Origin: Octopus vulgaris
Lineage: Eukaryota
Length of the DNA: 64,000 bases
NCBI GenBank assembly: GCA_951406725.2
Contig: OX597821.1
Span: 62,558,001-62,622,000, forward strand
Direction: 5' to 3'
Part shown: in pieces, positions 18,216 to 56,201 of the stretch
Numbering within the stretch: the first letter of the stretch is position 1
How the letters are laid out: every line of letters starts with the position of its first letter
The notes under the pieces: model-generated
What the model saw: only the letters and a program-made list of their open reading frames with translations
Database searches by the model: none
Told to the model about the DNA's origin: nothing
Translations under genes and position numbers: made by a program

Positions 18216-18549
18216 AATAATAACATATGATGGATAATTGTTAGCTTATTACAACCGTTTCTTACGCATCTTCTTAATAAAAGAATGAGAACATTACTGC
18301 ATTACCAAAAAAGCGTAATCGTTCGATGAAGCGTAATTTTACAAACATGTCATAGATGGCCTCAACAGACTTCGGCTGTATCCTGTCCGTGCTGTATTCT
18401 TGGGATATTCTTTTGCTTGTAAAATTATGCTCCATCGATTACGGTTTTTTTGTAATGCAGTAATGTTCTCATTCTTCTATCAAAAGGGTGCGCGAGAAAC
18501 AGCTGTAATGAGTTGACAATTATCGATCGACTGTTATTACTCCTTTGAG

Positions 18550-18644
<95 letters not shown>

Positions 18645-18718
18645 ATATGTGTGTGTGCATATATATATATACACTCAAATGAGTAATAACATATGATCGA
18701 TAAATGTCAGCTCATTTT
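18216..18718. repeat. Foldback element: arms about 18216-18344 and 18417-18550, plus a third inverted copy of the terminus at 18672-18716 across a (TA)n tract
   Basis: AAGAATGAGAACATTACTGCATTAC / GTAATGCAGTAATGTTCTCATTCTT; ACTCAAATGAGTAATAACA.. is the reverse complement of ..TGTTATTACTCCTTTGAGT. Confidence 0.85.
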
Positions 18719-30473: not shown

Positions 30474-30888
30474 CGTTTATGTGAGTTCGTGTGTTGAAGT
30501 ATAATCTGTTATGTCTGGGGAGAGTCATTCTCTTTTGGTGCCTTTTAATTTTTACACACTTACCGGTAAAATTTCCACTTATTTCTTTCGTTATTTTTCT
30601 AAAATTTTCATTGCGTTTCGACTCTCAAAACTATCGAAAAGATTGCAAGGCGCAACGAAAATTTTAGAAAATTAAAAAAGAAATAAGTGGACATTTTACC
30701 GGTGTGTGTGTTAAATAATATAAGACGCACAGAATAAGCAACAAGAATGATCCCGGTAATTACCGGAGTCATTCTTGTTGCTTATTTTGATTATAATCAC
30801 CCCACGGATTTACATGGATAACATCATACGGAATTCTGGTGCATCTAAATTAAGTACCATATTCATTTGAATGTAAATTTTTGCTGAA

Positions 30889-33236: not shown

Positions 33237-33759
33237 GCGTGTGTGTCTCTGTGCGTAGAAAACCATTAGCACTGTGTTTGGGATTTTTTGTTTTTGTCGA
33301 GTGGCCAAATATAGCCAACGGAAGTATCTCAACATAATAAACCAACAGATTAATAATTGCACATAAAAAAATATTACATCCTCCACTTCTCGTAAAAAAA
33401 AGAAAAGAATGGTCATATTATCCACTCACTGAAAAGGTTTGCGGGTAAATACAAATGTATAAAAACACAGCACCACCGATGACAATAGGAACAATAACAA
33501 CAAAAACCAGATCAACTATTACGGTGGGAATTGTAACATGCGAATTATTTTTCCTGAAACTGCGTTATTCCGCATCATTGTTTAGTTTGTATTGTAAACA
33601 GAGCCGAGTCATATACCTCACGTTTTGGATATCAACAGTCTTTCAATGATACAGGTCTATTACCTTAACCTATAATTTGTTAAGCCATTACGTAAGTTTG
33701 TAGACATTGGATTAAGTGTATAGACATGGGAACCATTCTTTTAAAATCTCTGGCAATAT

Positions 33760-34218
33760 AGAAATATCATTATTTCTAATTCTCTATAAAGGAGACTACG
33801 GCAGCGGTACTGAATATAAATAGTTATCGCCAAGCTAACATGGCGATAACTATTAATATCCAGTACCGATGCCGTACTCTCCATAAAAGAGAATTAGAAA
33901 TTATGATATTTCTATTTTTGACATCCAGTGGATGTATTCCACTAAATTTAGGTAAATAATTCTTCGAACAGTCAGTCAGCAGCGACGCTCGATGGGTTCT
34001 GCTACTCCACATTCATAAGAGGCAACCACCTCGAAACTAGTCTGTGGATGCCAGACCAGCAAGGAGAAGCTGCTGACCTCTCCTGTTCGAAGGTTATGAT
34101 GGACACAGTTTTCTGTGTCACATTACTAGCTAGATGCGATGGTCTCTTGGAGCTAATTAATGACAGCATTCGTCCTATTTTTCTGAACTGCCATGTTAGC
34201 TTGGCGATAACTATTAAT
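33760..34218 (+). mobile_element. Retrozyme/Penelope-like insertion with 5' inversion and 14-bp TSD
   Basis: ATCTCTGGCAATAT at 33746-33759 and 34219-34232; 75-bp-arm hairpin 33758-33915; 20-bp terminal direct repeat TGGCGATAACTATTAATATC (33841 and 34202); internal hammerhead scaffold. Confidence 0.75.
34006..34048 (+). ncRNA. Degenerate minimal type I hammerhead
   Basis: Stem I TCCACA/TGTGGA, stem II GAGG/CCTC, GAAA, palindromic stem III ACTAGT, GUC triplet. The core reads TTCATAA instead of CTGATGA (3 changes), so this copy is probably inactive. Confidence 0.65.
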
Positions 34219-34456
34219 ATCTCTGGCAATATTTTTTTCACAAAACAATAGTCTAAAAGAAAGGTAGAAGAGAACCGAAATAAAAGTACCAGTTAAGCAA
34301 ATGATGGCAGAACACGCTTTTGGTCGTACATCTATTACTTCACCATTTGGTTATAGGTAGAAAGCAACCACAGCAGCAGCAGCAACATCAGTCAAATGTG
34401 TAAAGGTGTAGTGAACTCTCTACTAACTCAGGTTACTAAAAATAGATAGAGATATA

Positions 34457-35262
34457 CGAGGTCTGATCAATAAGTATCCGAACTGTCGGCATAGTAACGA
34501 AGCAAAGCTGCTGTGCAAAGATTGACCTTGAACTCCGCTGTGCATGCGCACTAAGGTTTTATGTTCTAGCTTCACTTCCGCTATTTTCAACAGTGTTTGG
34601 AAGGACGCTGTATAGCGTGTGATCATCGCATTAACCATGACAGAGTAAGTTGAGTAGCGAATCTGCATCAAATTTTGCCAAAAGCTTGGCGGTACCTGTT
34701 CAGAGGCCTACGCAATGTTTTATAAAAGTTCTCATCGTTCTCGCTAAAATGAAGGCGATGTTGTACATTTGAAACCCGACTGTCGTTTTGGTCAGCCGAA
34801 AGCAGTTTTGGTGCAAACTTGAGAGACACACATCTCATACTCAAATCTTCAGTGATAATGGACTCAAGTGAACCGTTACTAATCTGCACATCTTTTGATA
34901 AATCATGGATGGTGGTTCGACGATTTACCCTCACAGCTGCATGCACACCTGCAATGTTTTTCTCAGTTCTGCTGATTGCAGGTTTCCCAGAACGTTTGTC
35001 ACTATCGAAATTTTCTCGGCTATCTTGGAAACATATGAACCACTCGTACACTTGTGTGTGGCTCATACACTCCTCTCTGTACATTTTCTACAACTTTGCG
35101 TAGTCTTCACAGCAGGTATTGACACGACAATAAGCTGCAATGCTAAACCTTAGTGGGCATGCACAGCAGAGTTCGAGGTCAATATTTGCCCAGCCGCTTT
35201 ACTTTGTGTACTTTAATTTCTTTACTATGACAACAGTCCGGATACTAATTTATCAGATCTCG
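34457..35262. mobile_element. Non-autonomous mariner derivative with two left ends
   Basis: TA TSDs (34455-56, 35263-64); TIRs CGAGGTCTGATCAATAAGTATCCG / CGGATACTAATTTATCAGATCTCG; inverted homology extends about 100 bp into the 5' UTR. Confidence 0.92.
34728..35120 (-). pseudogene. Mariner transposase N-terminal HTH fragment (no DD34D domain)
   Basis: YREECMSHTQVYEWF..FQDSRENFDSDKRSGKP...NRRTTIHDLS...IITEDLSMRCVSLKFAPKLLSADQ; HTH_48-type region and a WVPHEL-equivalent FAPKLL linker; stop codon upstream. Confidence 0.9.
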
Positions 35263-35344
35263 TATAAAACCACATAGTGAAGAATAAGGAATAGTTAAAC
35301 GTACTGATCTCCAATATCCATAAGTACGTACTTTAGAATCCTGA

Positions 35345-55927: not shown

Positions 55928-56201
55928 CTTGGGATAGACGCCGTCACCCATTGCACTACAATTAGTAAAATATTTACTCATATCTTTCTATATTCTCACT
56001 TCAAATTTTTTATATGCCATACACTTACCATATCACAGGAGTCGCAGATCGACCATACACACACACATATATATGGTCGATCTGCACTTAGTGTGATATC
56101 TTAACAGTATGGCATATAAAGAATATGAAGTAAGAATATAGGAAGATATGAGTAAATATTGTACTAATTGTAGCGCAATGGGCGACGGCCTCTATCACAA
56201 G
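55928..56201. repeat. Foldback: 130-bp inverted arms around a 14-bp (CA)/(TA) loop
   Basis: Arms 55928-56057 and 56072-56201, e.g. GCAGATCGACCATA/TATGGTCGATCTGC and CTACAATTAGTA.AATATTTACTCATATCTT. Confidence 0.92.

What the first reader, a model, noticed from the sequence alone, without database searches (positions are those of the whole stretch)
33746..34232. TSD-flanked insertion that records a circular or tandem 361-nt hammerhead RNA template (retrozyme-like)
Seen: a 14-bp direct repeat brackets the insert. The forward unit starts at 33841 and ends by repeating its first 20 nt at 34202 (offset 361). The inverted 5' segment (33760-33844), read on the minus strand, is unit END (GCCATGTTAGCT) joined directly to unit START (TGGCGATAACTAT..CAGTACCG..GATATTTCT). 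It therefore spans the head-to-tail junction well beyond the terminal repeat. A hammerhead scaffold (34006-34048) sits inside a larger stem (CTTCGAACAG..GTCAGCAGC / GCTGCTGAC..CTGTTCGAAG). Established: metazoan non-LTR retrozymes are small non-coding units of a few hundred nt with type I hammerheads, form circular RNAs and are thought to use PLE machinery. Inference: this is a retrotransposed, 5'-inverted copy of such a circle or multimer.
Basis: partly seen in the sequence, partly recalled or inferred. Interest (0 to 1): 0.8.

Follow-up and report, generated by a model that had tools for sequence, protein, structure and literature searches.

The report
Penelope-inserted hammerhead mini-retroelement, decayed copy
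This is one old, decayed copy of a very abundant 361-base non-coding repeat that carries a variant hammerhead-ribozyme fold; its ends match the insertion pattern of Penelope-like retrotransposons, which likely moved it, and whether its RNA template was a circle is untested.

Summary
The anatomy is confirmed: 14/14 TSD, 361-nt unit plus a 20-nt repeat, and an 85-nt inverted head joined through 4 shared bases. Public contigs show a high-copy family whose coverage stops at the TSDs. Its copies end at two fixed places about 56 nt apart (unit ~19 and ~75). This copy uses one at each TSD, which fits the Penelope 'tail' with an inverted head. The family hammerhead core is UUGAUAA (U3-A8, a known variant), not CUGAUGA; this copy has lost G5 and is likely dead. 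Family majority letters fold far better than this copy (-137 vs -103 kcal/mol; 0 of 300 controls as low). The 'unit start' is only the inversion breakpoint and the family's ends are fixed, not permuted. The cDNA crossed the ribozyme cut site, so the template was either a circle or an uncut longer-than-unit RNA; I cannot tell which. No empty site was seen; two other organism labels share the insertion. The scan noted similar Penelope-type mini-insertions on other DNA (e1-7858806, e1-7881736). Verdict: retrozyme-like non-autonomous Penelope derivative.

The parts
33746..33759 (+). 5' copy of the 14-bp target-site duplication
   Evidence: 14/14 identical to 34219-34232; family coverage starts in the bin 33756-33789
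33760..33844 (-). Inverted head: unit 350-361 followed by unit 1-73; its outer end is the family's distal fixed end (unit ~74-75)
   Evidence: 8 mismatches in 85 nt vs forward arm; loose ends into unlike flanks at 33758/33759 in 40 (X1), 28 (X8) and 25 (X9) listed contigs
33829..33844 (+). Inversion centre: 4-bp inverted repeat around an 8-nt loop; 33841-33844 is shared by both arms
   Evidence: sequence; the same 4-bp pairing (unit 1-4 with 350-353) has probability 0.98-0.99 in the majority-letter circular fold
33841..34201 (+). One full 361-nt non-coding monomer, 41.8% GC, at least 27 of 361 letters away from the family majority
   Evidence: 0 Pfam families in the 5 reading frames tested that overlap it
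33895..33914 (+). 8-bp hairpin (unit 55-74) whose 3' foot coincides with the distal fixed end
   Evidence: majority-letter fold; its role as a priming landmark is inferred
33956..34097 (+). Long rod enclosing the hammerhead; would hold the two cut ends together
   Evidence: fold z -4.8; family letters at 33961, 33974, 33989, 33990, 33992 and 34000 all improve pairs in it
34006..34048 (+). Type I hammerhead: 6-bp stem I, 4-bp stem II with 6-nt loop, 1-2-bp stem III with palindromic loop, core U3 U4 C5 A6 U7 A8 A9; cut position after 34042
   Evidence: 34014 reads G in 94% (X1), 92% (X8), 94% (X9) of summed contig depth and in 2 of 2 contigs of X2
34202..34221 (+). Repeat of unit 1-20; ends at the family's proximal fixed end (unit ~18-20)
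   Evidence: 20/20; loose ends into unlike flanks at 34219/34220 in 50 (X1), 59 (X8), 56 (X9) listed contigs
34219..34232 (+). 3' copy of the TSD; its first 3 nt also match unit 18-20
   Evidence: family coverage falls to flank level from the bin 34232-34265

Best explanation
This is a decayed genomic copy of a high-copy, 361-nt, non-coding hammerhead-bearing repeat family that was likely inserted by the reverse transcriptase-endonuclease of an autonomous Penelope-like element (PLE). Shown: TSD, inverted head, longer-than-unit forward arm, many family copies, two fixed ends about 56 nt apart, a U3-A8 core with G5 in the family, and a family fold that this copy has lost. Inferred mechanism: (1) a PLE enzyme nicks both strands of AT-rich DNA 14 bp apart. 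(2) The bottom-strand 3' end primes cDNA at the proximal internal start site (unit ~19, 3-nt microhomology). The top-strand 3' end primes at the distal site (unit ~74-75, 2-nt match). (3) The bottom-strand cDNA runs through the ribozyme cut position, so its template was uncut or re-ligated there. (4) The two products are joined at the 4-bp inverted repeat at unit 350-353/1-4, by annealing of the two cDNA ends or by fold-back of the top-strand cDNA, giving the head-to-head palindrome. (5) The copy then decayed neutrally by about 7-8%, losing G5. In the family, the ribozyme probably cuts as a dimer in multimeric transcripts, and the rod would clamp the cut ends for ligation into a circle as in non-LTR retrozymes. 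That this insertion's template was a circle I put at about 0.45, against about 0.55 for an uncut linear read-through or partial-tandem RNA.
For:: 1552, 1849 and 1720 contigs laid in three DNA-sized runs (X1, X8, X9). Summed depth in X1 is 1,500-52,000 inside against 9-20 in the adjacent flank bins (a rough sign of many copies, not a copy number). Loose ends with unlike, AT-rich flanks (agreement 0.44-0.49) pile up at unit 74-75 and unit 18-19. Three listed opposite-strand joints lie wholly in the unique part of the unit at different points (34001/34164, 33997/34154, 34055/34136), so inversion points vary while the priming ends do not. Listed joints tie a fixed end to an internal start (34219>34126; 34217>33927; 33758/33969), as partial tandems would. 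22-33 contigs per run carry family letters at 33883-87 yet map to the forward arm, which implies they run on past unit 75; the 27 majority letters lower the circular energy from -102.9 to -137.0; 0 of 300 random same-type sets do as well (z -5.5); 17 of 27 sit in pairs where this copy has a mismatch (13) or G-U (4); majority circle z -8.3 against 100 shuffles; helices pair unit 30-35 with 320-325 and 1-4 with 350-353, across the end-start junction. Literature: PMC11167929 (a purified PLE nicks and extends both strands, starts at two internal sites that define the tail, and uses uncut RNA); PMC3846280 and PMC8557442 (inverted 5'-truncated head, tail at one end, 8-10-bp TSDs, palindrome at the junction); PMC4209133 (canonical metazoan HHR architecture, U3-A8); PMC3088659 (U3-A8 natural, active in vitro); PMC7229834 (retrozyme traits).
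Against: No autonomous partner was found: no genome is held and no RT or endonuclease family was hit in 150 of 154 candidate frames of the window. The 56-nt tail is longer than the 30-40 nt reported for PLEs. No empty site is among the 15 listed joints (27 not shown); the insertion is shared by organisms A, B and C. No full dimer or array was seen, since the contigs are short. The one run guessed to be RNA (X2) gave 17 contigs of low depth, none over 95% alike and 13 only partly on the stretch, so abundant retrozyme RNA is not shown. The majority fold does not favour the + strand (-137.0 vs -135.1) or the circle over linear forms (-141 to -143). Majority letters come from separate short contigs and 98 table rows were hidden. 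Self-cleavage is untested; 8 of 9 Xenopus retrozyme dimers tested in the 2026 preprint did not cleave.
Confidence: 0.8

Rival explanations
1. One reading: the insert was copied from a covalently closed 361-nt RNA by rolling-circle reverse transcription (a true non-LTR retrozyme cycle).
For: The forward arm crosses the cut site intact and stops only 20 nt after one full lap. The family keeps G5, a 3-8 pair and full stems, and the rod would clamp the cut ends. The sequence closes on itself in other copies. Circles are shown for coral, mussel and axolotl retrozymes (PMC7229834).
Against: An uncut linear transcript of a copy like this one, with its tail, gives the same product, and uncut RNA was the main substrate of the anole PLE (PMC11167929). 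Listed joints look like re-priming at the fixed ends rather than clean laps. No circular RNA or full tandem array was seen; circular and linear folds are similar in energy.
Confidence: 0.4
2. It is a stump of an autonomous PLE (solo pLTR plus tail, with a small partial tandem), and the 361-nt period is specific to this copy.
For: Inverted head, tail and TSD are the architecture of autonomous PLE insertions, most of which are 5'-truncated (PMC3846280, PMC8557442); U3-A8 was first seen in PLE-linked hammerheads (PMC4209133).
Against: Family contigs are continuous across unit 75-76 and cover the whole unit at 100 times flank depth or more; no shared ORF-like loose end is among those listed (627 rows hidden). 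The ribozyme has canonical stem sizes, not the minimal PLE form. Family letters restore pairs between unit 30-35 and 320-325.
Confidence: 0.12
3. A DNA-level palindromic element (MITE or fold-back element) with a chance hammerhead-like stretch.
For: Inverted repeats and hairpins abound; the two strands fold equally well; other palindromic elements occur in the window.
Against: The inverted repeat is at one end only and its centre differs among copies; the TSD is 14 bp; the family keeps the catalytic letters with a 3-8 covariation; the descriptor hits once in 128 kb of both strands.
Confidence: 0.03
4. A SINE-like unit mobilised by an ordinary LINE, inverted by L1-type twin priming.
For: A 14-bp TSD, 5' inversion and junction microhomology are also LINE marks (recalled, Ostertag and Kazazian 2001).
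Against: There is no poly(A) or simple-repeat tail and no B box. Priming is at two fixed internal sites, and the arms overlap by 73 nt instead of abutting.
Confidence: 0.05

Closest known systems
Metazoan non-LTR retrozymes (Cervera and de la Pena 2020, PMC7229834; Li, Clavereau and Pollet 2026, 10.64898/2026.07.22.740005)
   Same: Non-coding 150-450-nt unit (mussel 350-390), GC under 50%, canonical-size type I hammerhead with weak palindromic stem III, highly self-paired fold, TSD over 4 bp, high copy number, dispersed monomer copies.
   Different: U3-A8 core instead of CUGANGA; explicit PLE insertion marks (two fixed ends, inverted head), which the parts of those papers that I read do not describe; tandem arrays, cleavage and circles not shown here.
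Penelope-like element insertions with inverted pLTR and tail (Arkhipova 2013, PMC3846280; Craig 2021, PMC8557442; Frangieh 2024, PMC11167929)
   Same: Inverted 5'-truncated head overlapping the direct copy, palindrome at the junction, tail on one end only, TSD of about 10 bp, AT-rich targets, two priming sites, template uncut at the ribozyme.
   Different: No ORF; tail about 56 nt rather than 30-40; hammerhead of canonical rather than minimal PLE form.
Non-autonomous Chlamys PLEs such as MRC1 (passage in PMC8557442)
   Same: Non-autonomous PLE derivatives with pLTRs and head-to-tail copies.
   Different: Green-algal; that clade is reported to lack canonical hammerheads.
U3-A8 hammerheads (Perreault 2011, PMC3088659; Schistosoma Cercyon-linked motifs, PMC4209133)
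   Same: Same covariation of the 3-8 core pair.
   Different: In Schistosoma it was reported from a search with a PLE and mostly as single motifs; here it sits in a canonical-size ribozyme within a 361-nt structured unit.

Membership tests
non-LTR retrozyme | type I hammerhead of canonical architecture in the unit | tested here: met
   stems 6/4/1-2 bp; family core UUGAUAA with the U3-A8 covariation; this copy lacks G5
non-LTR retrozyme | non-coding unit of 150-450 nt, GC under 50%, no LTR pair | tested here: met
   361 nt, 41.8% GC; no Pfam hit; PBS and PPT were not searched for separately
non-LTR retrozyme | genomic head-to-tail tandem arrays of two or more full units | tested here: inconclusive
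   sequence closes on itself and 20 X8 contigs read on past unit 20, but those may be tail-bearing ends; contigs are too short for dimers; no array within 32-36 kb of the window
non-LTR retrozyme | TSD longer than 4 bp | tested here: met
   14 bp
non-LTR retrozyme | highly self-paired monomer | tested here: met
   predicted only: z -4.3 for this copy, -8.3 with majority letters
non-LTR retrozyme | self-cleavage and accumulation as linear and circular RNA | not testable with these tools
   only assembled contigs were available
PLE-mobilised insertion | two internal priming sites giving an optional tail at one end | tested here: met
   loose-end peaks at unit 18-19 and 74-75 in three runs; spacing about 56 nt, longer than the published 30-40
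PLE-mobilised insertion | inverted 5'-truncated head with a palindrome at the junction and variable breakpoints | tested here: met
   other inversion points
PLE-mobilised insertion | homology to the pLTR of an autonomous PLE in the same genome | not testable with these tools
   no genome held
autonomous PLE | RT plus GIY-YIG ORF | tested here: not met
   the insert is 459 nt between TSDs with no Pfam hit
tRNA-derived SINE | tRNA-like head with A and B boxes | tested here: not met
   no B box; only two undefined ARAGORN calls at a relaxed 70% threshold, on hairpins

The most novel reading that the evidence does not exclude
A family of many hundreds to thousands of U3-A8 hammerhead RNA circles, invisible to CUGANGA-based screens, that is copied by a Penelope enzyme priming both target strands at two fixed sites. 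Its insertions would be the first direct genomic record that retrozyme circles are Penelope substrates, with forward arms stalling just after one lap.
Probability: 0.3. Interest if true: 0.7.

Novelty: new variant of a known kind. Interest (0 to 1): 0.45.

Why it matters
That retrozymes are moved by Penelope-like elements rests, in the papers I read, on shared ribozymes, co-occurrence and pLTR homology. Here a retrozyme-type unit carries the PLE enzyme's own footprints: two fixed priming sites, an inverted head and a long TSD. With so many copies, the lengths of forward arms relative to one lap and to the ribozyme cut site can test whether PLE templates are circles, cut monomers or uncut multimers, which is still open. 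The U3-A8 core also suggests that screens built on CUGANGA undercount such families. This single copy is inert and has no evident host function.

Tried and rejected
No own genome, so no genome BLAST. No second copy in the window. Rfam: no hammerhead; the weak miRNA hits are just the palindrome. Exact 24-nt junction pattern in JGI metagenome contigs: 0 matches. Phage records, distant blastn: no match. No earlier finding by sequence or in this genome. No RNA holder listed on record; this is no evidence on expression. Run X2 was credited with 0.58 of the words but gave no contig over 95% alike; unexplained. No pile-up of ends at the cut site (34042/43) among the 24 listed loose-end rows, but 627 rows were hidden, so nothing is concluded. 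tRNA-derived head rejected. One hairpin register that I probed (54/73) was off by one and gave zeros; the hairpin is read from the structure and the unpaired probabilities instead. Position 33926 was left out of the majority set because the runs disagree. A protein search with the transposase-like frame 34671-35087 found nothing, so the host is not identified by any search. Literature searches. None listed, by title or abstract start, a cephalopod retrozyme or a U3-A8 retrozyme; subscription papers, Repbase and Dfam were not searchable, bioRxiv supplements are closed, and Lunse et al. 2017 was not held, so the family may already be catalogued.

Full report
Observation. The 14-bp direct repeat (33746-33759, 34219-34232) is exact; the 20 nt from 33841 recur at 34202; the minus strand of 33760-33844 is unit 350-361 followed by unit 1-73 with 8 mismatches in 85 nt. 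An exact 14-mer repeat so placed arose in 57 of about 20,000 random placements, 48 of them microsatellite-like. The window is about 32% GC and rich in microsatellites, with no protein family above Pfam's cut-off in 150 of 154 candidate frames. The host is an animal by inference from this and from DNA runs with 1.9-2.6 billion letters of contigs. Its repeats look octopus-like to me, but that is recalled and no call confirmed it (one search found nothing).

The ribozyme. A relaxed type I descriptor hits once on both strands of the window, at core 34012 and cut 34042. Stem I is 6 bp, stem II 4 bp with a 6-nt loop, and stem III is 1-2 bp closed by a palindromic loop. This is the 'canonical' metazoan architecture described in PMC4209133 (parts 1-2 of 4 read), which that paper says needs a second copy to fold as an active dimer. 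The core here reads UUCAUAA. In public contigs position 34014 is G in 1318 of 1406 (X1), 784 of 852 (X8) and 6597 of 7017 (X9) units of summed depth and in 2 of 2 contigs of X2; 34012 and 34017 are not among the 40 listed differences (98 hidden), and two printed contig fragments read TTGATAA (tables 5c and 7). So the family core is UUGAUAA: U3-A8 in place of C3-G8. That covariation is natural and active in vitro (PMC3088659, passages) and occurs in Schistosoma PLE-linked motifs (PMC4209133). This copy's C at position 5 very likely inactivates it (G5 as a catalytic-core residue is partly recalled; PMC3088659 notes that most core changes cause drastic loss). Rfam misses the motif.

The family. 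No genome is held, so I used my single read-laying run on four of 24 listed runs. In three DNA-sized runs 1552, 1849 and 1720 contigs fit, with summed depth in X1 of 1,500-52,000 inside the element against 9-20 in the adjacent flank bins. The tool warns this is no copy number; I take it only as 'very many copies'. Coverage begins and ends at the TSDs. Loose ends that run into unlike, AT-rich flanks cluster at 33758/59 (unit 74-75: 40, 28, 25 listed contigs in X1, X8, X9) and at 34219/20 (unit 18-19: 50, 59, 56); 627 loose-end rows were not shown. The family therefore has two fixed ends about 56 nt apart, and this copy uses the distal one at its left TSD and the proximal one at its right. Inversion points are not fixed: three of 15 listed joints are opposite-strand joints at other places in the unique part of the unit. 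Three others tie a fixed end to an internal position, as expected if truncated cDNAs are extended by re-priming (inferred; internal deletion is an alternative). Contigs with family letters at 33883-87 map to the forward arm although the inverted arm matches two of those three letters, which implies they continue beyond unit 75; the 361-nt loop is thus a family property. The insertion itself is present in organisms A, B and C (junction contigs with 1-4% differences), and no empty site was listed.

Structure. This copy folds well as a circle (-102.9 kcal/mol, z -4.3 against 100 shuffles). With the 27 majority letters the energy falls to -137.0; 0 of 300 random sets of the same substitution types reach it, and 17 of 27 letters lie in pairs where this copy has a mismatch or G-U. 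About 60% of positions are paired, so this is what neutral decay from a structured ancestor gives. The majority fold pairs unit 30-35 with 320-325 and unit 1-4 with 350-353, across the end-start junction, and both fixed ends lie at the 3' foot of a hairpin. Against over-reading: the minus strand folds as well (-135.1), and linear forms are slightly lower in energy than the circle, so folding does not show polarity or circularity.

Mechanism. A purified anole PLE nicks and extends both DNA strands at AT-rich sites and starts reverse transcription at two internal sites whose spacing is the genomic tail. It does not need ribozyme cleavage (PMC11167929, parts 1-2 of 4). PLE insertions commonly carry an inverted 5'-truncated head overlapping the direct copy, a palindrome at the junction, a 30-40-bp tail at one end and TSDs of 8-10 bp (PMC3846280 and PMC8557442, passages). 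This insert fits: bottom-strand priming at unit ~19, top-strand priming at unit ~74-75, and joining at the 4-bp inverted repeat by end annealing or fold-back. These steps are inferred.

Circle or not. Position 33841 is only where the inversion happened; the natural monomer would run from cut site to cut site (unit 203 to 202) and holds that 'junction' internally. What the insert does show is that cDNA crossed the cut position, so the template was not a simple cut monomer. A ligated circle fits, and the stop 20 nt after one lap and the end-clamping rod are suggestive. An uncut read-through RNA from a copy with one unit plus tail fits equally, since a lone weak-stem-III ribozyme may not cut. The one run guessed to be RNA shows only 17 low-depth contigs of other copies and cannot decide it.

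Comparison and novelty. The unit meets the testable traits of non-LTR retrozymes (PMC7229834: passages, part 1 of 3 of Results and the Discussion); tandem arrays are inconclusive and cleavage and circles untestable, so I call it retrozyme-like rather than a proven member. The 2026 preprint (parts 1-3 of 5; supplements not seen) already argues that retrozymes are non-autonomous PLE derivatives, from co-occurrence and pLTR homology in vertebrates. PMC6962438 (passages) counts 235 hammerhead loci in giant squid without describing units; PMC6765202 and PMC7151607 (passages) gave background only. Eight searches listed no paper that by title or abstract start describes this family; repeat databases were out of reach. 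Two earlier scan notes describe related PLE-type mini-insertions in other genomes; they are unchecked and not used as support, though one gave me the lead to PMC3846280. What is new is a family with a U3-A8 core in a canonical-size ribozyme and with direct PLE insertion footprints. Verdict: real; new variant of a known kind; interest 0.45.

Noticed in passing
run X9 (depth 188) and X8, joint 34189>33844: A family variant whose end-start junction lacks about 12 nt, including the 4-bp inverted repeat used for the inversion here; may be a subfamily.
   Followed up: no
window 34045-34046 and 34008: Stem I variants: 34046 reads A in about 36-45% of DNA-run depth and one X8 loose end has T at 34008, which would be a compensatory pair; all 3 contigs of run X2 carry other letters at both 34045 and 34046, a form rare in the DNA runs at 34045.
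   Followed up: partly
window 34453-34559 and 35145-35266, frame 34668-35087 (-): Inverted repeats (76%) around a transposase-like reading frame (mariner-like by recall), about 220 nt from the insert; no Pfam hit and no protein search hit.
   Followed up: partly
window 55928-56201; 30550-30715; 30730-30789; 18507-18716: Other imperfect palindromes (78-90%), some with microsatellite centres; none carries a hammerhead by the descriptor.
   Followed up: partly
window 13105-13160/13821-13876 and 61168-61312/61955-62093: Pairs of inverted repeats (95% and 82%) about 0.8-0.9 kb apart, likely small DNA transposons.
   Followed up: no
window 23170-23380/36767-36971; 2922-3085/25501-25667 and further copies: Several dispersed SINE-like repeat families; the first resembles an octopus tRNA-derived SINE (recalled, untested).
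   Followed up: no
window 33760-33832 vs 33841-33913: 6 of the 8 arm mismatches are complement swaps (5 A-T, 1 C-G); most are explained as independent decay from the family letters, more often in the forward arm.
   Followed up: partly
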